This document shows positions 5,920 through 34,557 of a stretch of 64,000 bases of DNA, piece by piece. The notes beneath the pieces are model-generated. The model made no database searches. It saw only the letters and a program-made list of their open reading frames with translations, and was not told where the DNA came from. Source of the DNA: Daphnia carinata (Eukaryota); NCBI RefSeq assembly GCF_022539665.2, contig NC_081331.1, forward strand, positions 11,656,001-11,720,000. Reading direction: 5' to 3'. Position 1 is the stretch's first letter. Every line of letters begins with the position of its first letter. The position numbers and the translations under genes are program-made.

Positions 5920-6368
5920 TTAGACAAGATGGCCCTCGGTTTCGAGTGACCGCACCGTGGCGAGAGACGGACCGGAGAATTGAGCCGTAGCCTCCATGAT
6001 TGGTGAGGGACCTTCCGATGGATTAAACGAGGAAAATTGGCTATGCCCTTGCATAGACATGGGCAGCGGTAGAGGCAGGTTAACGGGTAGAGCGGACGCT
6101 CGTCCCGAAGACGATGGAGACGGACCGTAGACACCGTTGGCAGCCGGAATATTTAGCGTGCCCATCGGCGTGTAGGGGCTGTGTGCGCCATGATTGCCAG
6201 TTGGTTCGCTCAAAGGATTGTAGCGATGATTCGTGCCAGTCGTGTGGAAGGAAGGATGCGGCGCCGGAGGGTAGTTGACTGGTGAATTGGCATTGACACC
6301 ATAGTACGCATCTGAATGAGGCGAAATGGGCGACACCATCCGAGATTTACCATACATAGCTTCATTGC
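5920..6368 (-). CDS. sns: nephrin/sns last coding exon (..NEAMYGKSR...SLETEGHLV*)
   Basis: Acceptor TTCCAACAG|GC, TAA at 5922-5920, PDZ-ligand GHLV end. Confidence 0.92.
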
Positions 6369-9300
6369 CTGTTGGAAGAAAAGAACCACGTCACGTTAAA
6401 TACATCGAAGAAGCTTCAATAGTTTGCCAACCACGCTTCCAACTTTGCTTTTCGCCTTCATACCTTGACTGTAGGCGTTGCGACGAAGAGTGTCGATGTA
6501 GTTGTCCTCGCCCATGTCGAAGTTGACCGACTTGGGAGGGCGTGATAAAGTTCCGTGTCCAGTGACGGCCTGAGCTGAATTATTGGCTGCCACTCTGTAC
6601 GATCCATAAGCCACTTGGCCATCGGCTTGATCAATCAGATAAGTGCTGACGGCCACTTTGGTAGCATCTTCAGGCTATATAAGAACATTTTAGAATCAAA
6701 ATTTTGGCGACGATGTAAAGTGCTGATTTGTTAAATGAAAAAAATAAACTCACGGCATAGTCGCTGTGACTTCCGTTTTGGCTGTACGACTCGCTCTTCT
6801 CCGAGATGGAGCTGAGGGTCTCGCCGTTGACCGTTTCGTTGTAGCTGCTCGGTGCGTACATTTCGATGGTGGCCGATTTGCTGCTGCCGCCTTCGCTGGA
6901 CATGGCTAATAGAAGCAAAACAAAAAAAAAAAAAAAAAAGCGAATATAATTAGTGAGTTTTCGCTGTGTTGAGGCAATAGCGCACATGCGTCATACTCCT
7001 ATTATTTATCATACTAAAGATGCGATGAACTCTTACCGTCAATTTTCCTTTCATTTGACTCGAGTCTGTTTTGTTTACCAGAACGAATTCACAGACAGAA
7101 TAATGAAAGCAAGCAACAATAATGAGACTACTAAGAATGTACAAGGAAAACAACAAAACACGACGGGTACGTTGGGTATTAAAAAATAAAAAAAAAGAAA
7201 AAAAAATACGCCTCATGCCGAACGAAACTAACCTTCTTCCATGCATTTCTTCTTCCGTCTTCGAATCAGGTAGCAGGAAACGATAGCCAAATTGAGGACA
7301 AGAAGGAGGGCGCCGGCTGTCGAAATGGCGATGATGATGATCTTGGGCGAATCGCCGCGGGTTAAGAGCAGATCGGCGTTCATATCGTCGTCCGGGCCTA
7401 CACGCAAACACGATGACACACAAACATGCAAATTGGGTAACGAAGTGTATAACAATATAGACGGACACGATAACAAACGACTGGGTAAAAGTGGGCGAGT
7501 GGAAACGGAATAGTTTGCGAGAACTGCTAACGAGAAGACTTGGCCAAATGCATGCAGGAAGTTCTACTGGAGCCGTAGATTAGACACGCTAGCAAACAAA
7601 GCAGGATGGCAAAGGTAGTCCATTCAAAGGGCCCCAAGTTAGTTTGAAACGGTACACAACTAGACACATTCGCCCAGTTATGCACTAATTAAACACCAAA
7701 GAAAGACCTTTGTTTTGTTTCGTTCAGAAAAAGATGCACACCACAAGCGGACTTACCTCGTTCCTTATGAAGAATCATGGCGGAATTGAACCGAATCCTC
7801 TTATCATAGTTTTAGTCATCGCCAATCGAGCGGAAACGGACGAAAAGGGATTGAAAAACAAACCTTTAGCGAGACGCTTTCGATGCCTCCGCCGAACAAA
7901 ACAGGCGATGAGGGCCACGTTGAGGACCAGCAGAGCCGTACCAACTATGGTGATGACTATGATCAAGACTTTGGGCATGTCGCCCGGACGGACCTCCAGG
8001 TCTCGCGGTTTCTGACCCGTAGGCGGAGCTTCGCCTGAAGGTACGATTATCATTTTGGGTTTGAAGGAATATATAATTTACTTGATGTTGTTGTACTCGT
8101 TTAAAATTACCAATCGGAAATGCAATAAAAGCGTGAAATTTGTCTCTAATGAAAAGCGTTCCCTAATTTTTTTTCTCCACCCCGAAAACCCTTAAACAAT
8201 TCACACAGCCCAGACAATGTTACTGTTCGCTTTCATTCTCTCGTTTTTTCTAATTCTCGGTCAGACGCCCACCTTTTGTTTTCCTTTGTTTTAAATAGGG
8301 CGACGGCAACGGTTAGAGACGGAATTCGGCATGAAAACGAGCAACTTAAAAGACGCCGTGGAACTTCTTATTCCAGCGCCATAGCCTTGGTTTATACGTA
8401 TATGCCATCTACCAATCACGAAAAACCTTAACCGGAAGCGGTAAATGCAATAGAGGGGTGCGTGTACAGTTTGTAGACCGTCGTCCAATTAAAGAAGGGG
8501 AGCATAACAAAAGAGGGGCGAGTTGTAAGTTATAAAAAAAAAAACGACCCGAACCGTGGTGGCAAAGAAGCACCACCACCATCAAACCACTACCTCCACC
8601 ACGACAGGATGAGCTTTGCGGTTAGCATCATTTAAGATGACTACCAGAAAATTTCCCCCGAATAATAATAGCAATAATACTTAAAGGCTAAAGAAACAAA
8701 GTAGATGATGGGGGAAGGGGGGAAAACGATGAAGAAGGCAAAGGTAAAAGGGGGATGAAGAATAAGATGAAACGAAAAGACTTACTCGATGTTCTGGCCT
8801 TGACGATATCCTGCGTGAAGTTGCTCTCGCCTAGGTTGTTGAATGCCATTATGCCGAAGAGATACTCGGTGCCCAGCGCCAGTCCGCCCAGCGTGAAGGC
8901 GGTCATATTGGTCGGATAGACATCGGCGTATTTATAAAATTCGTTTCCGATCTATCGTGTTCACAGATTTCCAAACATGAAAGAGAAAAAAAAAAAAAAA
9001 AAAAAAATCGATTAGAGTCCGATCGATCTTGGTTATGCAAAATAGAGGGATTTGTATTTTGTTTTTGGTTTTTTTTTTTTTTTACCTGGCGGTATCGTAA
9101 GCGGTACGATTGAAATAGCCCTCCGTCAAAGCCGGAACGCCACGCCAAATAGACAGAGTCGTGCGAGACGTTGACAACGTGAAGCGCCAAGGGTGGGTCG
9201 GGACGACTGGTTCCGGACAGGACCACCTTGGCAGTGTTGATGCCCATCTCGTTGCGGGCGACACAATCGTAGAGGCCGTAATCGCGTGAGCGGACACTGC

Positions 9301-12300
9301 CGACTTCCATCGTCGATTCCCAAGTCACGATGTCGACCTGACGGGTACTGAACGAGTACTTGTCGCTGGGAGTCAAAGGCGTCCCCTCTCGTGACCATCC
9401 GAAACTGATGTTGGGCGCTCCTTGAGCTCTGCACACCAACTTGGCCAGCTGGCCCTCATCTCCGGCAGCCTTCATCAACTGAGGCGAGTCGTCCATCACC
9501 GGCTTATCTGTAACAGTAGAATTTAAAAAGAAAAACCAACAGAAAAAAAAAACAGTTAAGGCAGCTGACCGATAGAAGCGTTCTGAGAAAACAATATTAC
9601 ATTTGACTACTAGCCACGTCTGTTCGATCGATTCTTGACCAATGCCGTTGTTGGCTACACATTCGAATGCTCCAGTGTCGTTGCGAGTAATCTCTCGGAC
9701 AAGCAGGTATGCCACACCGACGCCCGGTGTTTGTGAAGTACGTCCGTCCATATCGAAACCGGCTCGGCGCCAAAAAACTGTTGTGGTCGTCAGCGGATTG
9801 CCTGCCGCTCGGCATTCAAATTCAGCGTCGCTACCCTCGTTAATCATGACAGTAGGTCGAACTTGGACGATGGAAGCGGGATCTATCGTTCAACAAGCAA
9901 AACAAAACAAAGTGCGTCAAGATAACGAGAAAAATTTCAAAAAAAGAAACAAAACTCGGTTGATCATTACATTGGACGTTGAGTCGGACGGTGTGGCTGC
10001 GAGATCCTTCAGCGTTGGTGGCCTCGCATTTATAGTCGCCCTTGTCGTCTCTCCTGACGACCGTCAGGTTGAGGAAAGCTCCATCAAAAGTCATCCGGTC
10101 GTAGGCGCTGGCCTCTTTCAACTGTTTGATCGCGGTGCCATCGCGGAACCATTTGTAGGTTATTTCAGAAGGGTTGGCTTTGGCCGTCAGGTTCACTATG
10201 GCCGGCTCGCCTTCGATGACATCCACGCTGTAATCGGCCGGTTGCGGGAAATGCGGTTTGTCTACAATGATGTTAAAGAAGAAAAAGAAAATGTTTACGT
10301 TCATCCCGATTTACTATCGTGGATGTGTTGAAAGGGAAAACTCACATAAAACTTCCAATGTGATTGCGTCGTGGATTTGAGGGCCGATGCCGTTAGTGGC
10401 CTGACACGTGATGACTACACCGTGCAATTCAGGTGTGACTTCCATCTGCAGTGTCGATTTACTAACGATGCCGGAGTAGGCGCCAGGCACCGTGCTATTT
10501 CCAGCTGGTTGGATAACTTGGCCGTTGCCCCGAAGCCACGTCAATCGCGAAACTGGATTGCTGCTATCCGATTCGCATGTAATGGTCACCATTTGACCGG
10601 GTCGAAGTTTCTCCGGCCGAACTTTCACCGTCAATTGTTTCGGAGCAACTAAACAGAAACAAAAAAAAAACGGGAAAGAATAAAAATAAAATGAATAAAT
10701 AAAATTCACGTTTTGTTATTTCTTAATGACTGCATCCCTTCCGTTTGATGATATCGCGCCATTTTTACGGCACGATAAAAAGAGAATGCGCATCGTTCAA
10801 CAAACACATAGAAAAAGGGCGGAAAAAAGGAGATAAAAAAAAAAAGAAAAGAAAAGAAAAAGAAAGAAACAATGCAAAGGAAAAAGAAATGCAGTAGCCA
10901 AGACAACAAAGACAATGCACAATGCCAAATGAGGGTATCATATTCCTGTCATCAAACGAAAGGTGAGATCAGAAAGACACGCATAGCAAAAGTAGAGAAC
11001 TGGCGGACGAGTGAACGCAAAAATAAAAATAAATAAAAGCTTTTGTGCAAGACGAGACGGACGGTTGTTGGTGAATAAAAAAAAAAAAAGAAAGAAAGGT
11101 AAATAAAAAATAAATGAATAAAAACGAAAAATGCAGACGTTTCCGGCAGAACGGACAAAACAATCGCAGGCTTTTTTGTTTTGTTTTCTTTTCTTTTGTT
11201 TCAGAGATTTCTCAATGTCTTTCACAGCGAGAGACACCGACAAACAGGTGTAACTTACACTCGATCCTGATAGTTGTGGAATCAACCAAATTTCCCTCAA
11301 GGGCCGGATTGGTGGCCTCGCAACGCAGTTCCTTGCCGTTGTCTTCCCGTTTGGCCTGCATTTCCAGCAGCGATTGTGCCACACTGCCGTGACTTGTGTA
11401 GTTGGCTTTGATCTGATGTTTTCGTCAATTTTCAGTTGACCGGTTGAACGAAAGCCGCACAGAGAAATGAAAGGACCAATTCGAAGAGATCAGTATCCGA
11501 AATCGAACGGATTCATTGGCGGACGGACAAAAACAAAAGCGGACACGAATGTCAATTTTTTTTTTTTTTTACCTCTTTACGGCTACCCGACAAAAACCAT
11601 TTGAGCGTGGCGGGAGGATTGCCACCCATCGACATACAGTTCATTTGGTAGAACGAATTGTCACGAATGGTCCGATCGCGCATTCCCGAGATGCTAGGCG
11701 CTTCCGGTGGATCTGCACGCAATCATTTCCGATTGGACGGACAAGAGAGACACATCGAACGCAAATCTTTTAAAAATTCTGCTGGGTGGGAATTGTTTTT
11801 GTTTGTTTGTTTTCTAAAGACTTACAGACGACGCTGATGATTTTCGTTTCTGCGACACGCTGGGCAAGATCGGCCACAATGGCGTGGCACGACACAGTCA
11901 CGTTACGGCCCGTGGCGCGAATAGTGGTCGTCAAATTGGAGGAGGACACCCAGCCGCCGTCGGGCGACGTGGCAATCCGTGACCCGTTTTCGCGCACTTC
12001 CCGCCCGTCGACCACCCACGTGATCCGAGCCACCGGATTACTGTTGGTCGTCGTGCATTCAAGCGACACCGTATCGTTCACTTTCGCTTCGCTCGGACCT
12101 GTGACTGTTACCGTTTTCGGGCCGACTGTAGTTGAAAAATGGGAGGGGGAATGAAAAAAAAATGGATCAGTATCCATTTTTGTCAAGCAAACATTACAGT
12201 GGGTAACAACAATGATCATTTGATTGGACGTCATCCATCGCACATTGTCTTATCCCAATAGCTTCGGCAAAACGCTGTCTTTCCCCTATCGACGCAGTTG

Positions 12301-12765
12301 GGAGAAGGCCTTTCGTCGTGCGATGGATTCATAAGAAAACGTATAACTAGATCAGAGAGGAACTGCTTTTCAAACGTTTGGGTGTCGGAATTCAATCAGC
12401 CGTGCGTACGTACCCCTCCCCCTCCCCCCCCCTAGTTTTTATTGTTTTCATGTATAAATAAAGAGAGAAAGAAGAGAAGAAGAAAAAGGAGGCGACGGAA
12501 TTAGGAAAACAATTCAATTTCCGGACCATCTTGTTTTCTCTTACTCGTTTTCCCCACTCATTTCAAGGAAATTCCTGTAGGCAATGGCGACAGTGTCATC
12601 GTCTGACGACATTGTTTTTGTTTGTGTCTCTATTGTGCACGTACGAGTGACACAACAGAACACCGGGATAAAAATAAATAGATAAATAAAACAAATAAAA
12701 CGAAAATAAAACAACAACAAAAAACATCGCAACGGCCATGTCTTGTTGATGGTATCATTCGATCG

Positions 12766-12805
<40 letters not shown>

Positions 12806-14267
12806 GGGGAAAAAAATCAACAAAACAAAAAGGCAAAGAGAGAGAGAGAGAGAGATAGAGAGACAGCAAAAATTAGGTCTACGCAGGAAAGAAATAAGTT
12901 CTCAATGATTTTCTTTTGATTGGAATGGTTCAAACCCGGAAAGCGTTTGAAGGTGTTAAACGTGTGTCAGGCGAATGTACAAGTGTTCTCTATGTACACG
13001 GTATAATACAATAGCCTTCTATCAAATTGAAGAAAGAAGAAGAAGAAGACGATGAGCTTGTCAATTCTGTGTGCTAACTCTGGCGAAAGATGTTGGGAAT
13101 GGATAGAGCGGATAGACTTACAGTGAACGGTGAGCGTGATCTCGGCTTTCATGGGCGTGGCGGTGAGCGCGTTGCTGGCCTCGCAGCGGAACCGCGCGTT
13201 ATTATCGCTCGCCTCGGCACGAAAGATGTGAACGTTCCGCGATTCACGACCTGTCGTTTCGTACGCGTGATCAATCTTGACTTCATTCTTGTACCAGACA
13301 ATTTGCGCTAGTGGGTTGCCGCCGCGCGAAATGCACTCCAGTTTCACTTCTTGGCCCATGCGAACCGTTTCGCCTTCCGTGTAACCGATAATCTCCGGCG
13401 GCCCTGGCGGATCTATTTTTAGTGGCAAAAAAAAACAAAAAAAAAACAAGGCGAAATATTATGCCATTCTTGATTCAGTTAGACACTAGAGGAAGTTTAA
13501 AAAAAAAGAAAAGAAAGAAATGACTTACATAGAATGTTGAGAGCGACGGTGGCCCGTTTGGGAGCAATCAGAGCCGGATGGCGGGCCTCACATGTGTAGT
13601 CGGCTTCGTTGTCGTCCGGCTGGGCTCGGATAGTTAACTTGGATCGAGTATCGAACCGGCGCGGTACGTCAGCATCGGTGGTCGTGTTCTCTATCCGATC
13701 TGAACAACATCATCATCAAAAACAAGGGAGACAAGGTTTTGTCATTGATATTATTTCACGTAATCGATAGGGCATCTAAATAGAGCGAGGGTAGTTGTTT
13801 TACACTTACCGGATTTGATTTCCACGTTGCGTTTGAACCAGACGATCTCGGCGGCCGGTTTGGCGTTGCGGACCAAGCACTGCAGCAACAATTCCTCCCC
13901 TTCCCTAGACATGATCCGTGATCCGGCCACATAGTCGACGATTTCCACGCTGGAAGGCGGAACTGTAAAACCAAACAAAACATAAATTCGTAAACAATTG
14001 AAAAAGACATACAGTTTCCTCGTATTATGTTGATTATCCTAACATTGAATGCCTCGCTCGGCTTTGCGCATGTGGTCGACATCGAACGATGCCATCGGTT
14101 GGCATAAGTTATCGGAACTCGAATTGTACCCAACGATCAAGACGTTCGTTTGTCTGGGGATTTAATTACGTTATTGATTCTATTTTCTTTCTTCCAATGG
14201 TATTAGACATCCACGGCGGATGGGGAAATCAACCGACCTGAACGAGATGTTGCCCGGTTTGATGGAT

Positions 14268-14302
<35 letters not shown>

Positions 14303-14617
14303 TTTTTTATTTTCAATAATTGGATCCTGGTAGTTTCACAATAAAGAAAAAATCTAGCGGGAAGAAGAAAAATTTACAAAGGATCAAACAGTCGTCTACG
14401 TTTACCTTCCGGCGGAGTTAAAAATGATGATGATGATAAGACTAAAATAGATTTTTTTTTGTTGAAAAATATAGTTGGATTGACTTCCGGAATTCAAAAT
14501 ATTGCGAAATCCAAAGGCAAAAGGATCCAATGGCACAGATTGAACTCTTACTACGGTGAAACATATACATTTTTCTTTTTTTCCATTTGCCCTTCTAAAT
14601 CTCTTCAAACTCGTTAA

Positions 14618-14648
<31 letters not shown>

Positions 14649-17463
14649 GTGTTCGGTATGTCTAGCGCCTAACTTTATTCAGCATATGGGTGAAGAGGAA
14701 CGTCTTATGGAACTCCTGACATCTTCCTAGTCGTATAAAGTCAGATGGAAAAGAGCCCCGGAAGTCTCTTCAAAAAAAAAAAAAAAAACGCCTATTCAAA
14801 TGATAATCTAGTGCCCGGATGGAACCGTAAGCGAATGCAAGCACAGCCCAAGTCTCGTGCAAAAAAAAAAAAAAAATCTCTCCTTGCGAATGAATCGAGA
14901 CAATGACAAGACTTTTGATGCCTCGAGAGTAGAGGGATTTTCGGTTAGTTTTGCATTACGAGCGAGAAAGGAGTTCAGCAACGAAAATTTGAATGATCCA
15001 GCGGGACACTATTTCTTTCTTTTTTTTTTTACTCTTCCTTTCACCTCTTATTCTTTCTCTTTCCATATGAAAAGAGCAGCTCAGCCAATGGACGAGAACT
15101 TACACACGAAAAAAGAAATATAACGCTTTTAAAAGTCAGCTGCTTGAATGGATGCCTTAAAAAAAAAAAAAAAAAAAAAAAAAAGAAAGAAATCAGGGAT
15201 GGCAATAGTACTCGAAATCGCATTGACTTTGCGAACTCAAACGGAAAACCAACGAGTGTACTAGCGTGTGCAATCACACGAACGCAAACTTTGTGAGCCA
15301 TTAGAGTTTGCTTCAGCCGTTTTGTTTGCCAACGAGCGATCCCGGGACGCACCCTCCCCCCCCCCCCTCTCTCTTCCCCAAACGTCCCGACTTTCACGTT
15401 GGGCTATTAAAGCGCCATCAGTCGCGCAAACTTGTTCGGCTAGCTCGCTAACATAACTAAGAACAAAAATAAAATCAAAAAGAAAGTTGTTTGCTTTGTT
15501 TTTGTAAAGTAGAACCCTCTTGTTTGGCTCTTGTTGTTGTTGCTCACTAGTCTGTTAATCGAACCGTTGGTTTTTTTTACCCCGCCACTGAGCTCGTGAT
15601 CGCAAACTTGGGTTTACCAATCAATTTTTAGCTTTGCGCAGCGGACATTAACCGTACATCCTTGATTTATCACGTCACAGCACTCGGCCAGCAAGTGCCT
15701 GAGGGAGTCAGCAATCATCGACTTACTGAGAACGGTGAGCTGAGCGTCGGCCCGGATGGGCTTGGAGTTTCCCCGCGGGCCCACCTGGCATTGGTACTCG
15801 GCGTCGTCGTCCAGCGTAGCGTTCTCGATGCGGATGTGATGCTCGCCTTGCTCTTCGCTGCCCATGATGGTGTAGCGCGGAAAAGACGGAATGGTCCGTT
15901 CGAAACCTGCAATGCACAACACGAAACAAAAAAAAAAAAAAAAAAAAAAATAGAAAAATAAGCATCGAGTTCTCCTGAATGTTTTAGAACACAATCCGCT
16001 ACACAAAGGTGGGCAGTCAACCGTGTGTGCTGTACTCCATTTTGAAAATGGCCAAAACAAATAGACGCACAGGTTGCTCGGCCAACATCGATCTTGGAGA
16101 GATAGAGCATGGACTTGTTAATAGCTGGAAGCGTTCACAGAAATCCATTATTCACCGAGTCGAGTTGTTTGTCGTCGTCCCGAATGCCCGAGAACGAGAT
16201 CAGACTTTGAGAGGCAAGGGGTGGGGTGGGGAGGTAGGGTGGAAAAATCCTGGAAGCCATTAGATCAGTTGCCATGGGCGACTGACGGATGGCTGCTCCG
16301 ATATGCATGGGAATAAACATGTTTCAACACTGCTTTCAAAAATAAAAAAAAATCCCCCGGTGAGTAAAATGACCTTTTCATTTAACTGATTGGTTCTTGT
16401 TCCACTAATGGAAATCGTCGGCAAGTTTTAGTTTTTTTTTTTGCCTTTTCCCAACTCGAATCCATCCGTCCCAACGTCGACAAACAAAAACAAGACGGAC
16501 GTCTTTGAGAATTGAGAGAAGAACGGGTTAAGAACTCAGTCAACTGTGTAAATGAACGTCGTTTTACTTTCTAATCATTTCCCTTTCTCCCTCTGTTAAC
16601 CGTTTTTAACAAGCAGGCCTCAAACAGCAGCCACCTGGACCGTGTCTTTCGTGTCTTTTGCTCCCCACCCCTTCTTATTTTTTTTTAAACCAAAAAGAAA
16701 ATAAAGAAGGAAGAAAGCGACATAAAAGCTCTCAAAAAAAAAAAATATATATATATATATATATAGGAAAGCCATAGCAGCAGCCTTTGCATTTTTCGGC
16801 GTGTGTGTTAAATTAGCTTGTCTTGTGTCACGCTCGACCCCGGTTCACGCTAGAACGAACGCGCTCCAGCACGTTCCTCTTTTCCTTTTTCTTCACTGAC
16901 TTGCCTTCCATTGGAAAATGAAGAGAAAAAAAAAAGGGAGAAAGAAAAAAAAAAAAAAATGAGGAGGCTATCTACATTATGATAGGCTCGCCCAACAAAC
17001 AAATAATAGTGAATTTGAAATAAGGAGAACGAGAGAAAGTCACGAATGATCGACGACAACCGTGGGCAGCTGGAGAAGAGGGAAAAAAAAAAAATGCACG
17101 CGACACAGACGTAATGGAATGAAATCCAATTCAAACTTTGGGGTAGACATTCTTGAAAAATAAGAAAAGCGTCGTGTTCTTGCGGGGGGACCGCCGGAAT
17201 TTTATTTTATTTTTTTTTCCCCTCGAAAAATAAAAATTGAAAATCCTTCAATTCCCGCGTGTCTGCACGGCCATGCGGTAAGGGAATAAAAAAAAAAAAA
17301 AAAAAACGACGAGGCGAGAATAGTTGAAATATCCTTTTGCTTTTTCTTTTCTTTTTATTATTTGGAAGGTATTTTTCTATAGGTTTTTCTGGGGATGGTG
17401 GGCGTCGTTTCAAGACGACATTTTCAGGCTTCCCTTAACAACAAGCATTTTTTTTTTTCCTTC

Positions 17464-17504
<41 letters not shown>

Positions 17505-18952
17505 TGAATGCCATTGAAGAAAATATCGGCAATACCGGGCGCCGTGTACGTCGGCTTCCTGCAAATCGGCATTCATGCGTGACATCAACTATCGTCGTTA
17601 CGCTATTTTCACGTTCTTTTTTTTCATTTCTTTTGCTTGTCGCTTCCTTTGTCACACACAAATCGAAAAAGTTTTTCAATTCCTTAAACTACTTGACAAT
17701 GTCTATCGAACGACACTGTACATTTCATTTCCTATTTTTGTTTTTTGTTTTTTGTTTGTTTTTTTTCTCGTTGAATCATCACTCGCCATTTGCCCGTCTT
17801 TTTAAAGCAAAATGCCAAACCTATTCAAGCTTTTTAAAATGTAAACAGTCGACGCAGTTTGTTTGAAGGGCAAGGGAAAAAAGAGAGGACGGACTGGTTT
17901 GTGATCAGAGCGCAAGGACCTGATGAAATCTTTGGCAAAATAAAAACGTTGCCAAAATCCCCGGGAAAATTCAAATAGAAACGCGCATGAAAAGGCGACA
18001 ACTCTTTGACGCAAAGAGAGTGTTAATTCGGCAAAAAATAAATTCTCTTTCTTCTTTCTTTCTTTTTTTTTTTTTTTCACCCTTTCATCCGCAGTCCGTC
18101 CGCGTGAAATTGTTTCTGTGACCTTTTTTTTTTTTTTCTCGCTGGCTTTGACTGACGTCCTGGCAAATATTTGAAAAATTAGATGCTGCGCTGTGCAAGG
18201 CGTCCTGCTGGGCCGTGGTTCTCTTTTTTTTTTTTTTTTTTTTTTTACCGGACAAAAGGATCCTCGTAGGTTTTGAGCACATAATACCATCCCTTGCCGC
18301 ATACCCTTTCGCTCCCAGGGCAACAAACGTAGCTCTTTTGATCTCGAATTCGGCGAGGCCCATGACGTGTTTAGGGAACCAGACAACAGCAGCAACAATA
18401 ACAACAGAGCGCACACAGCTCAAATCTCTCTGCCATTCTCTGCTTTTTGGCCTTAAGTTTTGACTGGGAAATCTTTCTCGGCTTTATTCCACCTATTTTA
18501 TTATTATTATTTTTTATTTTTTATTTTTTATTTTTTTTTTGGAGTCCGTTGTTGTTGATGCGATATATTCGAACCGATGGAATATACATCCAGCCAAGTT
18601 AGCCGAGCTGGATAAACAGCCAGCCAACTAGGTAGTGGCATACTGTTTTGTACGGGGGTGTTTCGAAACTTTGGCCGGTTGTATGGTTTATAGGAGCGGC
18701 GGATATTACGTGCGCATTTGCAGACATAAATTACGGTGAAAAGTTCTATCCAACACAGCTGCAAGTACGGCCAGCCGAGGATTACAACATTGGCCTTAGG
18801 TGAGCGGTGCACATACACACAGACACACACAGACACAGACAGCAACAAGGAGAAATAGCTGAATCGATGAACGACCCTCTGGAGAAACCGTGAGGGATAA
18901 TGACGAGTAAGACTTGGCGATCCCCCCGGTTTGAAACTCAGGTGGGAGAGAA

Positions 18953-18987
<35 letters not shown>

Positions 18988-19547
18988 TAGGGAAAAAGGA
19001 AGAAAGAAACAAGGGGAGTCAAAGCTAACGATGGGTAGAATGAGAAACGAAAAATGGTAAACGTGACAAAGAGGATTGCAGCAGTTCCAAACCCACCTGG
19101 GGGGTTTGTAAATAACGCCCCACTTCGTGCAATACGATAATATAAGCGCGTCTATTGCGCCCAGTCTTTGTTTACTCGCGCAAGTCTATAAAAGTCTAAG
19201 CGCGTCGTTCCAGCCGCGATGTAGAGCTATATTTACAGGTTTCGCAGTTTCTGCCGTGGCTGATGAGAATGAACTCGGGACATATCACGAAGCGATTCGT
19301 CAGCAAAAAAAAAAAAAAAAAAAAAGAATAAACTACCACACAAACAAAAAGGAGGAGAAGAAGGAGCTACGAAACAAAAAAAAAAAAAAGTCTTTCATTT
19401 GTTGACATTGAGAACGTCTGGTTTTGCCTTTCTCTATCTACATACACAGCACGCATATGTACACTGACGTGTATGAGGAAAGAAGGAGAGTACGAATGAT
19501 GGAAGGCTTCTTTTGTTTTAACACCGTCTTCCTTTTCCCAGCCATCC

Positions 19548-19581
<34 letters not shown>

Positions 19582-21463
19582 TACTAAGTAAAGAGACACG
19601 GGCCCCATGGCTCATCTCATTTACAGACAAGTCAGCGCGGGTTACCGAACTCAATGGCAAACGGTCGGAAATTGCCGATGCTCTGCTAAACAAAAAATGT
19701 AACCAATACAACACGAGACCTTTCAAGATTCCGGTTCTTGTTCACGACTTCACGACATACGCAGTTCTTCTTTTTTCTTCAGTTGTACCGGTACGGCGTC
19801 GTTGTAAAGGCAAAGGAAATAAACTTAGAAAAAAAAAAAAAAAAAAAGAAAGAAAATAATACAGAACTAAAGTCGAACGCCGCTCATCATCGACAGGCCG
19901 ATCACGATCGACTCATTAAGAAAGGACCTCCTTCATTTCTTTCTTCTATGCTTTTTTTTGCCTGTCGAATGTGTTTTACGACTGACCGCGTGTACATCCC
20001 TCTTTCTAACCGACCCTAGTCGTGTTCTCCCGCTCCTCCCACGTCATCGCCGTAGTGAGAAAGAGGGAAAAAGAGCAAAAAGGTCAACAAGATCCCACCG
20101 GTTTTCTTTTCCCTTGCATTTCCCATTGTATTACGAAATAGATTTTTTTTTTTTTTTTTTTTTAAATAAGATTTAAAAAAAAAAAAATAAAAAAAAAAAA
20201 AAAAAAGGGGGGGGGGGGGGATTCTATTGAATATCAAAATCGATGATTATCAAGACACAATGAATTCTTTGGGCCCTTACTCTATAATGAAGCCTCTTGC
20301 AAAGACTTCAATGTGCGTCAAGTCAATCGTTAATGACAAGTCACACACCACACGGACCGAATGGCTTTGGTTTTTTCTGCTAATGGCTAAAAATGGGTGA
20401 GGTGGACGGTAAAGCACCAGCTGCATTCAAACAAAAGACCTCCCCCCTTCGAAGCTACTCTTCCAGCCTACATATACGGGCCCGTGGTTGAAAAGACGGC
20501 ACCAGAAGATCGGGAGGAAGCAAAAAATACAACTACCCCGCACACACAAGAGTCTCATATTACCCCCGAACACAACAACCCCCCCCCCCCCCCCACACAC
20601 ACACACACACACGCTGGAAGATGCTTGTTCTTATTTTCTATATGCTTTATTTTTAATGGCCCAATGTGTTATTACATTCCATGAGGTTTCTTCCTCATCT
20701 CTTTCTTTGTTTTGTTTTATTTTTGTTTTTGTTTTTCCAACAGTACATGTACGATTCCAGTAGTTCGTCGTGCCCTGTGGCTGAAAAAAAAAAAAAGAGA
20801 CAGACAGCTTTCATCTTTTCGTGCAACCGCGTTTTTTGACAGTCCCCAGACTGCATTATCGAGTCCAAGTTTGATAGCGTGTCTATGTTTTTTCTCTTTC
20901 TATTCTAACCCTTTTTTTTTTTCTACTTTCAACCATCAAAAGATTCCGCATCATCATCAACTATTATTTATACGACTCCAATTCTCTTTTCCTTTTCTCT
21001 CTTTTTTTGTTTCGTTTTCTGTTTTGAAATGAACCTCGTCGGCCAGTCCAACGTTGGCCAAATGACGGGAGTAAAAATAAAAAAAAAAAAAAAAAAATGA
21101 AAGAAAACGAGACGGGTAAAAAAGAAAAAAGGAAGGCAGCGAGATCAATTCGGGAGCAATCTAATCCACGCACGGCAGAGGTTCTTGAAAAGGCGCATCT
21201 AATTGAATTAGAGTCTCGAAGCGTCGAGTGAAAAGGGGGGGGGGGGAGAAAACAAGAAGGAACGAGAGAAAAAGGAAGCAATAGCCCCCAACAACTCGTG
21301 ATGTTACGTATCGGTAAGAGAAAAAAAGAAGCCGCCGTTCACTTCTAGCCGAGAAGAACGAAACAAAAACAAAAAAAAAGAAAGAAATAAAGGAGGTAAT
21401 AGGAAATCAGCGACTAATTTGATTACGCCAGTGCCAGTTTTGATGTGATGATGGGGGGTAGGC

Positions 21464-21500
<37 letters not shown>

Positions 21501-22130
21501 GTTCGTTTCGGAACAAAAAGTCCAGCAAAGAAACAAAACAAAACGTTCGCTGTTAGCGTCAAGTTATGTATATGACGTTGCCCTTGTTCAGCCGCTTTTG
21601 CCCGGAGAACAAATGAAGACTGTACCATCATAAATATCAGGACCCAAATAAAACAAAAAAAAAAAAAACAAAAACAGGGGGGAGAAAGAAAAGAATCCGA
21701 ATACACGGACAAAAATAAGGAGAATAAGTTTTTGTTTTCCAGATACGAAGTCCCAGGTTTGGAGTGCGCGATAAGCGGGTCGAGAAATGAGACTCTCTTG
21801 ATCGCGCCATTCACAGGGAATTTTTTCTTTTCTTTTTTCCTTCACAGGAACAATAATAATACCAAAAACGTAGATAGAAAACAAAAGAGAAGAAATACAA
21901 GACAATAGGAAAAGTTTTTTTGTTTTTTTTTTTTTTTTTTTTTCCCCGAAAATAGATGAAGACAAGTTTCTTATTATTATTTTCGGTTGAGCCCGGAGAC
22001 CGTACGCACACGACGGATTTTCAGTTAAGGAAAAAGATCGGACAATGTGTGATTGCACCATGTTGTTTATGCTATTGGACCTATCCACTTTGTAGTTTAC
22101 TTTCAAATGCTTTCTTTTCTTTTTATTATC

Positions 22131-22165
<35 letters not shown>

Positions 22166-25100
22166 GCTTGGTGGGGAAGCAAAGCCTCCCACGCTGTCGA
22201 TTACCTAAAGGAGGCGGAATTACATTTAAAAAAAAAAAAAAAAAGATTTTGAAAAGAAAAAAAAAAAAAAAAAAAGTTCATAGAGGGACAAAGGCGTAAG
22301 AGAAAAATCTTTTCCCTGCACAGTTTTTGTCTTGGGGGTTAACGCCCAATTCGTATTCTAATAAAAAGAGAGAAGAAAAAAAAAAAAAAAAAGAAACAAC
22401 ATTTCGTAAGCGATTGTAACGTACAAGATGACCACGTTTAGACAGACATCTTGGCCCGATCGCTTCACAGTCAAATAAAAAAATATATATAAATCTCTTC
22501 TTTTTTTTTTTTAGAAAACAAATAGACGAAGGGGAGACAAAGTAATTTTTTTTTTTTTTTGAAAAAAACAGTGGATGGAAATTTGAAGAGACGAAAAGAA
22601 AAGACAAAAAAAAAAAAAAAAGAGTTCGCAATGTCTTTGTTCGTAGAGCCAATGTGCGGGGGGTGATGTGTGGTCGTCTATCCGTTGGCTGTGAAACGGA
22701 CGAGCCCGTCTAAGGAGTAGACACGATCCTGTAGCGTCAAATATATAACCTAGCAGTCCGTCGTAAAAATCAGTCAACAACACACTCTTCCACGTCCCCC
22801 CAACCCCCCTTCTATTGTAGTTTATACATTTCTTATTTTATTTTATTTTTTTTTCCTTTTCCTGATGGCTATTGCGCGCGAGCTCCGTTCTATCGTCCCT
22901 GCATTTATTTTTATTTCCCTTCTTCTTTCTGTGTGTGTGTGTGTGTTCCAATGTTTACGACAGAGCCGCGACACGAGATAAGCTCGCACCGGTGAGTAGA
23001 CATGAACACAAGAGCCATGACAGACAAGACTTTCTTTGCTATCGGCCGTACCCCTTCAAAAAAAACATGGACGGGGATAGTCACAAAGCCTTGCCCCACC
23101 ACCACCACCTTTTTCACTCAGCTTCTTCTTCTTCTTTTTTTTTTTTTTTTATCTCAAAGATAGAGAACTCTCTTTTTTTTTTTTTTTTTTTTTTTCGTAA
23201 GAGCTGATGAAGATCGTGTCTGTGCGCGACGTCCTTCATTTGCCCATGTGTCCAGCTCCACCTTTTTTCTTTTAGCTGGAAAAAGAAAGGGCCATTCGAC
23301 CACCAGCAAAAACGGCGGACGTTTGAAATGATAACAATTCCGCTAATGGCAAAAGAGAAAAGCTGGGCGCCACCCAGGTAAAAAAAAAAAAAAAAAAAAA
23401 ATTCAATGAACCAGGATGAGGAATGATTGACATTTAGATAGCCGAACCCAACACCATTGCATACGCGTTAGGGCGTTCGTTTTTTTTTCTTTCCTTCTTC
23501 AAACTGTTAAGAGTTACGTTTTTTTTTTCTTTGTCTTCTTTTCTTTCTCTTCGTGATCTTATTCTCGTAGAAGTGAAAAAAAAAGGTAATTGCATCATCC
23601 CGAGAGCGACACCTGACTTAACACGGGGCGGTGGTAAAAAGCAGTTCTTTGGCTGTTGTTGTTCAAACCAAAGAGGAAACGAAAGGCTTTTTTTTTTTCT
23701 TTTTTAAGTACAGGCAGTTGTAGACGATGTTATCGATCACCTTTTTGGAGGTATAATACATTTCGAAAACGGAGTGTGTCTGTGTGTGTGTGTGTGTGTG
23801 TGTGGGGAAATGAATAAAAAAAAAAAAAAAAAAAAAAAAAAGTAAGGGAGAGAAGTGAACAACTTTGAATGATGATGGCCAATGGTCGAATGGATATTTT
23901 GACACATCATCATCGACGTATCACGGAGTTTCTCGTTGGCTTGGCAACTGCTACTCACAAACTCTGGCCGAAACACTTGCCCTGCCCAACTTTCCACGGA
24001 GTTCGCAATGGAAACCCATTTGTCATCAGCCCAACCTCAATTCTGTTTCCTCCCGTACTCGTCGTCTGCCAAAAAAAGAAGAAGAAGAAGAAAATGCTCT
24101 ACAATTTCATCGTCCCCCCCCCCTCATCGCGCTTTCCCCCCGTCCAATCTCAAACTCCCACTCGGAGCTTGTTAAGGCTCGGCATTCAACGAAAATTCAA
24201 TCCTTTTACAGCCAGTCCATTTAGCAGATCAAACAGATATTGCACATGACGACAGATCACACACACACACACACACAATTTCGCTATCAAAACTCTCTAC
24301 TCTAACGTCACCACTTTCGATCCTATTTCGAATTTGTAATTTGCCCGTCTCTTTAAAATTTATTTTCCAACTGCTAGTAGTTTTATTCTGTGAGTGCTCG
24401 TACTAGGAAAATCTATTCCAATTTCCAGTTTGGCCCAATCTTATGTTGTTTAATGATCAGGGCCCATCAGACTACGCAAGTCCGGATTGATGGCGAGTGC
24501 GATTATTACAAAAGTTCTATTTTTAACGGACGTACAGACAAAGCAAAAAAAAAAAAAAAAAAAAAGGAACGGGGGAGGGAAAGACGGACAGCAAAGAAAA
24601 GCCTTGCACACTAGAAAACGGGAAAGATTAAAAGAGTATCGGAACGATGCAGAGGCGTAGGGATGGGTACGTCTGTAGCAACGTCACGAAGATGGATTAG
24701 TCGAGATAGGACTCGATCCAACACCGATCCATACGAAAGGAGTGAAATCCCCGTCTTTCTTTAGTATTTTTATATATTTTTTTTCAAGTAAAGTATATGT
24801 GTGTGTGTGTGTGTGTGTGTGAAAGAAAAGTCCTTGCTGGACCATCGTGATTACTTAGACCAAAAAGAAGGAAAAAAGAAAGAAAGAAAGAAAGAAAGAA
24901 AAAAAAAAAAAAAAAAGACTTACCGAGAGCGAATCCGTCTTTGGTCCATTGAGCTCGGCCTTGTTGGTTACCAACCCGGCAACGGAGTACGGCCATCTGG
25001 CCCTCGCGGACGCTGGTGTTTTGCGGCCGTTCGGCAAAGTACTGCTGCTGTTGCTGTCCGTCGCCTGTGAAGGAAACAAAAGAGGGATTATTCAACGAGG

Positions 25101-25686
25101 ATGAAACAACAACAACAACAACAACAGCAACAAGAAATAGGCGCAAAAACGACCATAAACTAAAAAGAAAAAAAACTAAGGTCTACGAGACTGGCGTACA
25201 ATCTCGCTCTCTCCTTCGTTTGCTTTGTAAGAAGTATATATGTATATAAGCTTTCTCTCTAGTATTCCCGCGTTCGCCGTGATGAATGGCGGGCGGGATA
25301 ACTCTCCCGTCTCCTATTTTTTTTTCCCCCCCCACAAGTCTGGCTGTATGTTTTCCTGCGTTTCCCCGTCGTGACTGCATGATCGGAGAATAGAGCATCA
25401 ACATGAATCTTGATAAGGAGAATGACGAGTATAGAAGGCGGAAGGAGAAAAAACCCCAGCCACCCAGCGAAAAACAAAAAAAAAAACAATAAGCCACTCC
25501 ATCATATTCTTTTTTTTTTCTTTTTTTTTCTTCATATATTTATATATTTGTTCTTGAATAGAGCTCCACCTACTTATTTATGCATCTACTTTAGGGAAAC
25601 GGTTGGCCAACCGTGAATCGCTGTCGTCATTTCCCACAAAGATATATTTTATAAGACGAGAGGAAATTTTGCTCTACCCCTTTTTT

Positions 25687-25723
<37 letters not shown>

Positions 25724-27407
25724 CTTTTCCGGCCACGTTTTTATTTTTATTTTTTTTTTTTTTATATGTGCCACTGAACGTTGAGTGACATTGCAGTCGA
25801 ACGACGACGACGACCCTAAATTCCCCATTTTTCCTTTCTTTTTTTTTTTTTTTTTTTTCACCACAATAAAAAAGAAAATGTGAAAAGGGAACCAATTTCA
25901 TCAAAATGGTCGGCAGCAAGTAGTGTACAACTAGCATAAAAAGATATTATAGAGTACGAAAGAAGGGGAGGAGGGGAGGGGATGGTCAATCAAAACAGAT
26001 CCGACTTCATGTCTCTAACCGCTAACCCTTTGGACAAATTGGATGCCATTTCTCATGTTAAGTTGTTGTTTTTATTTGTTGCTGATTCCAGTGGACTGTT
26101 TGCTGCCGGGGACTCCCCTCACGTTATCAAAAAACAAAACAAAAAAACAAATGACTACCTTTACTTATATGTCCACTATCGATATTCACACATCATTTCA
26201 ATGAATGAAATGTTAGTCGATGAGGGTGGGTATCGCTAATGAATTAACTTTGGGAGCCGAAATAAAAAGAAAAAGAGAATTAAAAGAAAAGACTGCAGTT
26301 AAGTAAATGGCTGGAAAAGGGTTCGGCCATCCGTGAGTGATGCCTTTCTCCTCACGCATTCACTTAATGCATGCATAACGAGCCGTAGGACAACGATGGG
26401 GGAAAGGCAAAAAAAAAAAAAAGAAAAGAAAAAAAAGAAAAGAAAATACATAGAGCGGGACTAGAGGAGGGTGAGGCAAATGGTATCACTGACTCTTGTT
26501 AGTTCAGCCACGTTGGCGTTCACGTACACGACGTCTAGCGTCTTCTCTTTTTCTCTCTGACGTCCTCTCTCAACTGTTCCATTTCCTTCTTTTCTTTGGC
26601 GCGAATCAATATCCTCTTGCGTCGGCTGTCACTGACTTTGGTCATTGGCTCTTTTTTCTTTTTCGCTCTTCTGTGTTAGGTAGACGACGACATTCGTCGT
26701 CGCTACGGGGAATTGAAATCGATACACACAGCAGCCCAAAAAGTAGTATGATAGGATACTAGATTCAATTTTTGTTTCTTGTTTTCTATTTTTTTTTTTT
26801 TTTTTTGTCCCAACCATCCACCACTAGGGCGATGTTTGTATTGCATCAAACGAGAGGTAAAAACATAAGGGAGGTCATCAATGCGCAGTGTGCGCGCGCG
26901 CTGCGCAATACGAAGCCAGTCGATTAAGAAATCAAAAGCAATTGAGGGACCAAAGATGATGGGTAGGCAAGCGAAGTGTGACGTCATGACGTCTGTCGAA
27001 GGCCAAAAAAAAAAAAAATAATAATAATAATAATAATAACAAGACGAGCAATCCATACGCAATGGACCATTCAAAAAAAAAAAAACGATCCATTGAGCTG
27101 ATACGTTTTTTTTTTTTTTTCTCATCTCTTTTTTCTTTTTCAATTCGAGGAAGATGTAGCTTGGATATTGATTTCATCTGCTAACCTTTTTCTTTTCTTT
27201 TTTTTTTTTTTTTTTTTTTCTCTTATCCAAGGAACACGTATTACTCGCTTTTTGATGAAAAAGAAGAGAAAAGACGGGCTGGACACGAGGCACAAACAAA
27301 CTGTGCGAGAGCTGCTGCGGCCAGTGATTTTCAATCCGGCAGCGATAAGAGGTCGGTTGAATTCTTCAATAAATGGAGCGGATGGGGGCAAACTCCAAAG
27401 TTTATTG

Positions 27408-27440
<33 letters not shown>

Positions 27441-27633
27441 TGTGAGGTAGTGCAAAGACGAGTTGTTTTTTTGTTTGTTTTTTTTCCTCCCTCACGCGGT
27501 ACACGCAGAGTGTATAGATATCCCTTGTGTTATACAAACACGAACTGCTGGTGCAGCTTGAACAAGAAAACAGAGAGAGAAAGAGAGAAAAGTTGTTACA
27601 TCAGACGAGGAAGAACTTTTTTTTTCGCCCTTT

Positions 27634-27722
<89 letters not shown>

Positions 27723-29372
27723 ATTTTCTTGCCGCGTCATAGAAAACTTTGATTTAATGGCCGCGTAATGTGGTGTACAACTTGTTTCGCAGCAACGCAC
27801 TCTGTGACGTACTGTTAAGGCACACTATTTCATAATCACAATGTTAGATACAATAATAGGAACCCACTTGCGCGCTCCTCCGCCAATTGAGTTGCTGATG
27901 TCGTTCGTGTCTTTTCTTAAAAGACACGAATCTCGACACAGGGAAAAACAAAAAAACAAAACAGGCATCTCATTAGTAATGCGATACGACCGTCATGGAG
28001 ACTGCGATAGTTATGAACCAATGTTGGGGGAAGCCCACCAATTAGTACAACGTCGAAAACCAAGCGCGCTATCAAACGCAAATGTCACATATCAAAATGA
28101 TAATTCAACAACACGGAAAGGAAAAAAAAAAAAAAAAAAAAAAAAAACGAAAATAAAAAGTTCCTGTTTTTATGCGGAAAGAACAAAAAATAGAACACGT
28201 CGACAAAAAAAAAAAAAAATTGTTTTACATTTAAAAAAAAAAAAAAAGGGGGGGAACGAAATCCGTGTGCGTCCGGTGCAATATCAATAAATGTGTAATT
28301 CACATCTTCCTTTCAAAAAAAAAAAAAATAAATAAATAAATTCTTTTTTTTTTTTCGTTGAGGAGATCGTGCGTGTTGTATGGAAAAAAATAATATCGAC
28401 ACATAAAAGGCGGGAAAGCTTTTAGCAGTGCGCCTCATCATTCATCTCTCGGGCTCGTCATCGTAGACATTTTTTTTTTTTTTTTCTTTTTTGGCATGCG
28501 TTCCATGTCTTATTTCTCGGCGACGCTCGTTAAAAAAAAAAAAAAAAAAACGAAGAAGCGTGAAAAAGAAAGCACAGGCTTTTTTGGAATTACTCAATCT
28601 TGGCTAAAGGCTGACCGCATTGAAAACGGCAGAGGAAGCTGATTGTCGGATGATCCGTGTGAGCGTGTGTGTGTGTGTGTGTGTGTGTCCGCACTCGCAT
28701 TGAATCAAGCCACTCGCATCCAATCACCTACGGCCGTATGGCCAGTTTGGCGGAAAAAGAATGGAAGCCCTTCATCATCGTCTTGCGAGTCACGCAAACT
28801 ATGCAAAAATTGATACGAGTGAAAGAAAAACCGCTAGATGCGTTAATGACTAGTCCCCTTTCTATCAAAAGAAAACAAGTTCAATGACTATCCTTGTACG
28901 TTTTCCTGTAATCACAGTCGGCGGTACGCATCTAGAGTTCTGCTAGAGAGTGAACTGACATTCCTTTGTAGAAAAAAATAAGTGGCCAGTCGGCCAGATC
29001 GAGAAAGAGAATTCCGTCAGGTTTGACGTGGCCAAGTTTGCCAAAGGCGAAGCACCGTTCGGTCACACGCCATTCAACACGTCATGCACAGGTGAATGGT
29101 TAAACGCCATCATGTCTCTGTATGTGTCATAGACATCCACACAAAAATTCCAAGCTGTTCTTCCGCATGTTGAAACGTGTTTCCTTATGGCTCACGATAT
29201 TCGTCCCCTTTAGTTGATTGACCTCTGCTGACAAAACACTCAAAAACATCTCGCCATTTAAATCGAAATCATCTGCGGACGATCCTCTGAAACGATCTCG
29301 TCCTTTAAACGTAGACGCGTACGACACATTCGGACGATAAGAAAATGGGGATAGATAGATAAACCAAAAAAA

Positions 29373-29403
<31 letters not shown>

Positions 29404-34523: not shown

Positions 34524-34557
<34 letters not shown>

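What the first reader, a model, noticed from the sequence alone, without database searches (positions are those of the whole stretch)
7233..8034. Tandemly duplicated, probably mutually exclusive transmembrane exons in a nephrin/Sns receptor
Seen: two exons between the FN3 exon and the first cytoplasmic exon, each with GT-AG sites, phase 1-1 and length divisible by 3 (171, 165 nt). Each encodes stalk + TM helix + basic cluster. From the shared GD-x-PK they align without gaps at 18/40 identical residues (including LLVLN and a Cys), and both are intact despite that divergence. They differ in stalk (Pro-rich APPTGQKP vs acidic PDDDMNAD), and B has an extra juxtamembrane Cys. Established: nephrin-family proteins are single-pass, and Drosophila Dscam1 uses two mutually exclusive TM exons (17.1/17.2) to sort isoforms between dendrites and axons. 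Inference: an analogous TM switch could tune localisation, palmitoylation or shedding of this receptor in nephrocytes, fusing myoblasts or neurons. I do not know of this being described for sns/nephrin; a literature check is needed.
Basis: partly seen in the sequence, partly recalled or inferred. Interest (0 to 1): 0.88.

Follow-up and report, generated by a model that had tools for sequence, protein, structure and literature searches.

The report
Ancient alternative membrane anchors of Sns
A water-flea gene for the nephrin-type adhesion receptor Sns carries two side-by-side exons for its membrane anchor, RNA of a related water flea uses one or the other, and the same pair runs through crustaceans and insects; it is already catalogued for the fruit-fly gene, but what the swap likely does (changing the receptor's stalk in particular tissues) is untested.

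Summary
Observation confirmed. Both exons (8034-7864, 7397-7233, minus strand) are intact, AG/GT-flanked, phase 1-1, and 18/40 identical. The gene is Daphnia sns/nephrin. RNA contigs of a related daphniid show FN3>upstream>tail and FN3>downstream>tail, and no upstream>downstream joint (2 of 4 runs informative, one study). The pair, in the same order wherever order is visible, recurs in branchiopods, malacostracans, springtails and insects; 39 chelicerate and myriapod models show one exon, resembling the downstream one. Upstream stalks are Pro/Ser/Thr/Gly-rich, downstream stalks acidic and aliphatic. Exclusion is not absolute: 35 of 322 models carry both. It is not undescribed: RefSeq models both isoforms, and fly sns is on a published list of tandem-duplicated-exon genes. 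Ten paper searches found no functional study. Conserved Rbfox-type and How-type intron motifs suggest tissue control. The scan found this before on other DNA. Caution: the window's exons look chimeric with another daphniid.

The parts
5920..46785 (-). Whole sns/nephrin gene (signal peptide, Ig domains, one FN3, TM, cytoplasmic tail); coding exons from 46785 to about 5920
   Evidence: tblastn of P0003 (XP_059352881.1, 'nephrin-like', Daphnia carinata) on the window; exon 9505-9086 is 100% identical to P0003; Pfam Ig and fn3 matches
8786..8951 (-). Constitutive exon with the second half of FN3; common donor for both TM exons
   Evidence: RNA joints 8785>8033 and 8785>7396 in runs X1 and X2
7864..8034 (-). 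Upstream TM exon (U): Pro-rich stalk, TM helix with invariant Asn, one Cys, basic cluster; likely the derived copy
   Evidence: RNA contigs; tree
7752..7757 (-). Conserved unused donor-like motif GGTAAG in the U-D intron; extending U to it would cross an in-frame stop
   Evidence: present in window, L001, L002; all three in 0 of 1000 shuffles; position; no RNA contig covers the extension
7681..7695 (-). Conserved intron block TGTTT[A/G]ATTAGTGCA, function unexplained
   Evidence: alignment; shared 8-mers; position
7637..7644 (-). Conserved AACTAACT: candidate How/QKI site or distant branch point (motif identity recalled)
7551..7556 (-). TGCATG, candidate Rbfox site (motif identity recalled)
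   Evidence: two copies in this intron in each of 3 species; total reached in 0 of 1000 shuffles
7420..7438 (-). 19-nt block identical in three daphniids just before the D acceptor; contains the second TGCATG (7430-7425)
7233..7397 (-). Downstream TM exon (D): acidic stalk ending in GD-x-PK, TM helix with invariant Asn, two Cys, basic cluster; ancestral-type copy
   Evidence: RNA contigs; groups with chelicerate and myriapod single exons
7214..7218 (-). GCATG 12-19 nt after the D donor in all three daphniids
7032..7037 (-). Second conserved unused donor-like GGTAAG, in the D-tail intron
   Evidence: all three species; 0 of 1000 shuffles
6948..6955 (-). Likely branch point (CACTAATT) of the common cytoplasmic exon, 38-49 nt before the acceptor in three species
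6754..6905 (-). First cytoplasmic exon, common acceptor for both TM exons
   Evidence: loose ends at 7233 (X1, X2) and 7864 (X2) equal its first 25-27 nt

Best explanation
The Daphnia sns/nephrin gene has two homologous exons for the stalk, membrane helix and basic stop-transfer cluster, transcripts of a related daphniid include one or the other, and the choice is likely set tissue by tissue by splicing regulators so that the same ectodomain and signalling tail would sit on either a flexible or a compact stalk. Shown: exon anatomy; single inclusion in RNA contigs; the pair across Pancrustacea; a consistent stalk contrast (U rich in Pro/Ser/Thr/Gly and coil-like, D acidic, aliphatic and more helix-prone, like the single chelicerate and myriapod exon); conserved intron motifs. 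Inferred: one duplication in the pancrustacean stem, with D keeping the ancestral form (about 0.8). Inferred: Rbfox (UGCAUG) and How/QKI (ACUAAC) proteins bound between the exons promote U and repress D, which yields near-exclusion without steric or frameshift enforcement (about 0.45). Inferred: the main functional change is in the extracellular stalk and juxtamembrane Cys pattern, altering O-glycosylation and shedding, reach across the junction and lateral clustering or lipidation, rather than axon-versus-dendrite sorting as such (about 0.5). The splicing part alone is about 0.93.
For:: in X1 and X2 two short contigs each join the FN3 exon to U or D and then to the cytoplasmic exon; in X1 their depths (51.8 + 88.4) add to about that of the FN3 contig (145.3). 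D. pulex and D. pulicaria X1/X3 carry U only and X2/X4 D only; 5 of 5 UniRef-only D. magna proteins and 10 of 10 long pancrustacean-type Logan proteins carry one TM; both single forms within one species for Artemia, Macrobrachium, Procambarus, two Penaeus, Oratosquilla, Folsomia, Ischnura, Cloeon, Frankliniella, Halyomorpha, Tribolium, Tenebrio, Bombyx, Anopheles and many flies; all 35 dual models are U then D; all 25 U rows form one side of a branch (100/99); D groups with 9 chelicerate/myriapod rows; the same on the 32-column TM core without the stalk (90/93; 94% of bootstraps). 24 pairs: stalk P/S/T/G higher in U in 23, aliphatic residues higher in D in 24, acidic residues higher in D in 22; the TM Asn is present in all 58 rows (rows were anchored on it; the Cloeon U exon lacks it and was left out); models give coil for the U stalk and short helices for the D stalk; shared 8-mers in the U-D intron of three daphniids, 18 against a shuffled mean of 0.13 (maximum 2).
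Against: Contigs drop rare forms and the flanks are only 25-29 nt, so no U>D joint in 2 informative runs of one study does not prove exclusion; the RNA comes from the L001-type daphniid, not the window's species. 35 of 322 models are dual and 6 skip both, and both are in frame. With only position-known rows on the TM core, U needed 2 changes, and AU tests did not reject independent duplications (Daphnia p=0.315, branchiopods 0.315, Diptera 0.058). Several U/D labels were assigned by type, not by genomic order, which is partly circular. The Daphnia U stalk is atypical: Ser/Thr 5%, and it keeps GD-x-PK. Stalk pLDDT is under 50 in both models. N-cadherin TM isoforms showed no localisation difference. 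No tissue data were obtained, and the regulator assignments rest on recalled motifs in three species.
Confidence: 0.6

Rival explanations
1. Dscam1-like sorting switch: the two anchors mainly send Sns to different membrane domains (dendrite versus axon, or diaphragm versus basolateral membrane) through juxtamembrane targeting motifs.
For: Dscam1 17.1/17.2 precedent with a cytoplasmic juxtamembrane axonal motif (PMC2566808 passages); Sns acts in neurons as well as myoblasts and nephrocytes (PMC9000958 passages); Cys and aromatic residues at the cytoplasmic TM end differ between U and D.
Against: The most consistent U/D contrast lies in the extracellular stalk, while basic residues after the TM barely differ (means 5.58 vs 5.29). 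N-cadherin 18a/18b are not sorted differently.
Confidence: 0.25
2. Two independent cassette exons rather than a mutually exclusive pair: cells also make a two-pass form with the tail outside and a secreted form, which would act as decoys.
For: All four joins are in frame; dual RefSeq isoforms in Artemia (X1, X2), several Drosophila species, Lucilia, Bactrocera, Anastrepha; skip-both models in 5 species; humans and rodents have a TM-less nephrin variant (PMC3144718 passage).
Against: No U>D joint in the RNA contigs; 10 of 10 Logan pancrustacean-type proteins and 5 of 5 UniRef-only D. magna proteins are single; 226 single U or D models against 35 dual, even though dual-model queries favour dual hits; many dual models are unnamed or hypothetical gene predictions.
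Confidence: 0.1
3. The proteins are functionally interchangeable and the pair is kept for regulation at the RNA level (expression timing, or unproductive splicing through the conserved GGTAAG donors).
For: N-cadherin isoforms were largely redundant in vivo while their expression patterns were conserved; a donor-like motif follows each TM exon in three daphniids, with a stop in the extension.
Against: Exon-specific stalk composition has stayed distinct across crustaceans and insects, and the U TM is invariant among Daphnia and 78% identical to Artemia U over 32 columns, which points to protein-level selection on each copy; no RNA contig uses the extra donors.
Confidence: 0.12
4. Exclusion is enforced by RNA secondary structure: the conserved AACTAACT pairs with the D donor, or the ATTAGTG block pairs with the branch point of the common exon, looping D out.
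For: The AACTAACT element pairs with the D donor at rank 2, 1 and 2 in window, L001 and L002, the only element-target pair that recurs at one landmark among the top four in all three.
Against: Ensemble pairing probability 0.31, 0.0 and 0.004; the second pairing 0.03, 0.0, 0.0; no compensatory change, and both partners can be conserved for their own reasons. Simple steric exclusion is unlikely: the intron is 466 nt and the conserved branch-like motif lies 221 nt from the U donor.
Confidence: 0.15

Closest known systems
D. melanogaster sns (FBgn0024189) in Supplementary Table S4 of PMC9741552, and RefSeq isoform models of pancrustacean nephrin/Sns
   Same: Orthologous gene listed as having a tandem-duplicated-exon substitution; RefSeq models U-only and D-only isoforms in D. 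pulex, D. pulicaria, Artemia, decapods and insects.
   Different: The table gives the gene name only; 'sns' does not occur in the main text. That the listed event is this TM pair is my inference. No age, regulation or function is given.
Dscam1 exons 17.1/17.2 (TM1/TM2)
   Same: Two alternative TM/juxtamembrane exons in an Ig-FN3 receptor of arthropods.
   Different: Different gene family; Dscam1 sorting to dendrites or axons is demonstrated, nothing comparable is shown for Sns; no Ig-exon arrays were seen here.
Arthropod N-cadherin exons 18a/18b
   Same: Mutually exclusive pair encoding part of the TM, duplicated before insects and Daphnia diverged, paralogous exons 36% identical (PMC2655722 passages).
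   Different: Cadherin, not IgSF; exon 18 covers only part of the TM; isoforms gave graded adhesion in S2 cells but no localisation difference.
Vertebrate nephrin TM-less splice variant
   Same: Alternative splicing at the TM exon of the orthologous receptor (PMC3144718 passage).
   Different: Exon skipping of a single TM exon, not substitution by a duplicate; NPHS1 and KIRREL are not mentioned in the main text of the human tandem-exon paper.

Membership tests
Nephrin/Sns/SYG-2 receptors | Ig array, one FN3, single TM, cytoplasmic tail; sequence orthology | tested here: met
   relatives named nephrin, syg-2-like and 'nephrin adhesion molecule sticks and stones'
Nephrin/Sns/SYG-2 receptors | Binds Kirre/Rst/Neph partners | not tested
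   no binding test was run
Tandem-duplicated mutually exclusive exons | Adjacent, homologous exons of similar length and the same phase | tested here: met
   171 and 165 nt, phase 1-1, 18/40 identity, 0 of 5000 shuffles
Tandem-duplicated mutually exclusive exons | Each exon is used singly between the same flanking exons | tested here: met
   RNA contigs of a related daphniid; single-exon isoform models
Tandem-duplicated mutually exclusive exons | Co-inclusion and double skipping absent or rare | tested here: inconclusive
   no U>D joint in 2 informative of 4 runs, but contigs drop rare forms; 35 dual and 6 skip-both models among 322
Tandem-duplicated mutually exclusive exons | Enforcing mechanism (steric, frameshift/NMD, RNA pairing or proteins) | tested here: inconclusive
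   frameshift excluded; steric unlikely; pairing unsupported; conserved protein-type motifs present
Dscam1 exon-17-type sorting switch | Isoforms localise to different subcellular compartments | not testable with these tools
   needs tagged isoforms in vivo
Dscam1 exon-17-type sorting switch | Homology to Dscam1 exon 17 | not tested
   the exons group with single chelicerate and myriapod sns TM exons, so the resemblance is read as analogy; Dscam1 exons were not compared

The most novel reading that the evidence does not exclude
A single duplication in the pancrustacean ancestor gave Sns/nephrin a second, flexible-stalk membrane anchor that has been kept in crustaceans and insects ever since, switched by Rbfox and How, so that myoblasts, nephrocytes and neurons run physically different receptors; together with a two-Ig cassette it tunes junction width and shedding, and single-cDNA Sns experiments have sampled only one state.
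Probability: 0.3. Interest if true: 0.7.

Novelty: already known. Interest (0 to 1): 0.38.

Why it matters
Sns is the core receptor of fly myoblast fusion, the nephrocyte diaphragm (a kidney-filter model) and some synaptic wiring. A TM-exon pair kept from shrimps to flies is almost certainly functional, yet the searches made here found only annotation and a gene-list entry. It gives a cheap, direct test in Drosophila (lock the gene to one exon) and warns that transgenes, antibodies and rescue constructs represent one of at least two anchors. The kind of switch is known from Dscam1 and N-cadherin, so it adds a case, not a principle.

Tried and rejected
No whole genome is held for this window, so paralogues in the same genome were not searched. 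RNA-structure enforcement: tested and not supported. Frameshift/NMD enforcement: excluded, all joins are in frame. 'Extra Cys in the downstream exon' as the general difference: rejected outside cladocerans. Proof of a single origin by AU test: not obtained. Runs X3 and X4 gave no usable joints at the TM exons (X3 nothing laid, X4 one partial contig of another species). Use of the GGTAAG donors: no RNA cover, which is no proof of absence. PDB sequence search gave only generic Ig/FN3 proteins. Lepeophtheirus exons (divergent, order unknown) were left out of all trees and feature counts, the Cloeon U exon out, and both Cloeon exons out of the paired counts. Ten paper searches found no study of Sns TM isoforms; supplements of PMC7954323 (6 files) had no sns entry. 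Three papers that may bear on novelty were not held and not seen: Hatje and Kollmar 2013, Bour 2000, Kocherlakota 2008. No complex prediction was run. No hymenopteran, spider, scorpion, ostracod or barnacle record was named among the hits, so these are unsampled.

Full report
OBSERVATION. On the minus strand two exons lie between the FN3 exon (8951-8786) and the first cytoplasmic exon (6905-6754): U at 8034-7864 (171 nt) and D at 7397-7233 (165 nt). Both have AG acceptors and GT donors, both are phase 1-1, and all four possible joins are open. Each encodes a stalk, a hydrophobic helix with an Asn and a Cys, and a basic cluster. From GD-x-PK the identity is 18 of 40 residues and 66 of 120 nt; the alignment score 113 was reached in 0 of 5000 full and 0 of 5000 segment-wise shuffles. 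The introns are 751, 466 and 327 nt.

GENE. Exon 9505-9086 is 100% identical to XP_059352881.1, 'nephrin-like' of Daphnia carinata (P0003), which maps along the window from 46785 to 5923 and uses U. Pfam gives Ig and FN3. Fly relatives are named 'nephrin adhesion molecule sticks and stones'.

RNA. Four poly(A) runs of one freshwater study held part of the stretch; all are assembled contigs. In X1 and X2 two short contigs each join the FN3 exon to U (8785>8033) or to D (8785>7396). Their far ends equal the first 25-27 nt of the cytoplasmic exon: behind D in X1 and X2, behind U in X2; in X1 the loose end behind U is a two-contig consensus (agreement 0.92) that reads as the same exon start of a related species. 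No U>D joint was listed. X3 and X4 were uninformative here. In X1 the branch depths, 51.8 and 88.4, add to about the 145.3 of the FN3 contig. Limits: flanks under 30 nt, one study, and contigs drop rare forms. The 22 differences of the RNA in D are exactly those of metagenome contig L001, so the RNA comes from the L001-type daphniid and not from the window's species. Of the 19 differences listed, 10 changed codons are silent and 5 swap residues inside the TM.

CONSERVATION. Three protein searches and three cluster look-ups gave 322 named or labelled proteins of 450 residues or more, classed by best match: 107 U only, 119 D only, 35 both (all U then D; one Anopheles case is doubtful), 40 outgroup-like, 17 without a recognised TM, 4 without the FN3 anchor. 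One vertebrate protein was left out. Of the 17, six are skip-both models and eleven are pattern misses or truncated. Both single forms occur within one species in D. pulex, D. pulicaria, D. magna, Artemia, Macrobrachium, Procambarus, two Penaeus, Oratosquilla, Folsomia, Ischnura, Cloeon, Frankliniella, Halyomorpha, Tribolium, Tenebrio, Bombyx, Anopheles and many flies; dual models add Trinorchestia, Timema, Polyplax, Nilaparvata, Aromia and others. Lepeophtheirus has two different TM segments in two models. Thirty-nine chelicerate and myriapod models (Limulus, Tachypleus, ticks, mites, Strigamia, Chamberlinius; unnamed ones labelled by similarity) show one TM, shared by all isoforms of a gene; their genomic DNA was not examined, so absence is not proven. 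L001 and L002 show the same exon order and the same donors in two more daphniids.

ORIGIN. In a 59-row tree of exon products (58 columns) all 25 U rows form one side of a branch (100/99) and D groups with the 9 outgroup rows. On the 32-column TM core alone U is still one side (90/93; 94% of bootstraps). Against this: some labels were given by type, and with only the 11 pairs whose order is known from DNA or dual models plus 5 outgroups, U needed 2 changes and AU tests did not reject separate duplications in Daphnia (p=0.315), branchiopods (0.315) or Diptera (0.058). One duplication in the pancrustacean stem, with D ancestral, is the simplest reading, not a proven one.

WHAT DIFFERS. Over 24 species pairs the U stalk has more Pro/Ser/Thr/Gly in 23, fewer aliphatic residues in 24, fewer acidic residues in 22 and a worse helix propensity in 23; outgroup stalks match D. 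Basic residues after the TM hardly differ. AlphaFold models of D. pulex isoforms give coil for the U stalk with a helix at 850-876, and short stalk helices with a helix at 845-881 for D, but stalk pLDDT is under 50. The Daphnia U stalk is low in Ser/Thr, which weakens a pure O-glycosylation reading for this species.

HOW THE CHOICE MAY BE MADE. Frameshift cannot police double inclusion. The U-D introns of window, L001 and L002 share 18 8-mers against a shuffled mean of 0.13: two TGCATG per species (0 of 1000 shuffles), AACTAACT, a TTAGTGCA block, a 19-nt block before the D acceptor, and GGTAAG after each TM exon (0 of 1000 for each intron). UGCAUG as the Rbfox site and ACUAAY as the How/QKI site, with activation downstream and repression upstream of an exon, are recalled knowledge; in that position they would favour U and repress D. 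Window-L001 agreement next to exons may be inflated by the chimerism noted below, but L002 shares these blocks independently. RNA pairing was tested and not supported.

KNOWN OR NEW. D. melanogaster sns is one of 154 genes in Supplementary Table S4 of PMC9741552 (supplement row, section 14 and passages seen); hbs is not listed. The table names no exon. RefSeq already models the isoforms. Precedents: Dscam1 17.1/17.2 (PMC2566808 abstract and passages; PMC8042237 passages) and N-cadherin 18a/18b, old as the insect-Daphnia split and not differently localised (PMC2655722 passages). Humans and rodents have a TM-less nephrin variant (PMC3144718 passages). PMC9000958 (passages), PMC7954323 (passages and 6 supplement files) and PMC3923563 (passages) say nothing on Sns isoforms. 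Ten searches found no functional study; Hatje and Kollmar 2013 and its supplements, Bour 2000 and Kocherlakota 2008 were not held and may mention the exons. The scan noted the same pair three times on at least two other genomes; those notes came after my reading and are not counted as support.

VERDICT. Real, ancient and very probably functional; a known kind of switch, already annotated and catalogued for this gene, with its function open. Interest 0.38.

Noticed in passing
window exons 8034-7864, 7397-7233, 6905-6754, 6674-6616 against L001 and runs X1/X2: The window's exons look chimeric. They are nucleotide-identical in patches to another daphniid (L001): U 0 differences in 146 nt, second cytoplasmic exon 0 in 59, first 3 in 152, but D 22 in 165 with identical ends, while the introns align better with L002 than with L001. 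RNA contigs show the same patchiness elsewhere (1 difference in 8785-8953, 56 in 13122-13412). P0003 has 22 private residues against 3 for D. sinensis and 5 for D. magna. Most likely an assembly polished with reads of a second species; real exon-limited introgression is much less likely.
   Followed up: partly
window 12125-11259 (minus strand): A three-exon cassette of 198 residues, about two Ig domains, is alternatively skipped: D. pulex and D. pulicaria X1/X2 against X3/X4, D. magna 1347 against 1149 aa; RNA joint 10645>13122 in X1 and X2 and inclusion joints in X2. It would shorten the ectodomain and combines freely with the TM choice in the D. pulex models.
   Followed up: partly
window 7757-7752 and 7037-7032; L001 and L002 at matching places: A donor-like GGTAAG follows each TM exon in three daphniids; extension to it crosses a stop. 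Alternative extensions right after the TM exon are also modelled in Limulus, Tachypleus, Ixodes pacificus, Chamberlinius and Oratosquilla. Could be poison donors, tail-less isoforms or U1 decoys; unexplained.
   Followed up: partly
proteins P0174, P0175, P0193 (Anopheles): Anopheles appears to have two sns-like paralogues, each with both TM exons; whether one is the hibris orthologue was not tested.
   Followed up: no
window 46785-46711, 25083-24922: The first two coding exons are separated by introns of about 21.6 kb and 9 kb, large for Daphnia; no other long coding frame was recognised in the window.
   Followed up: no
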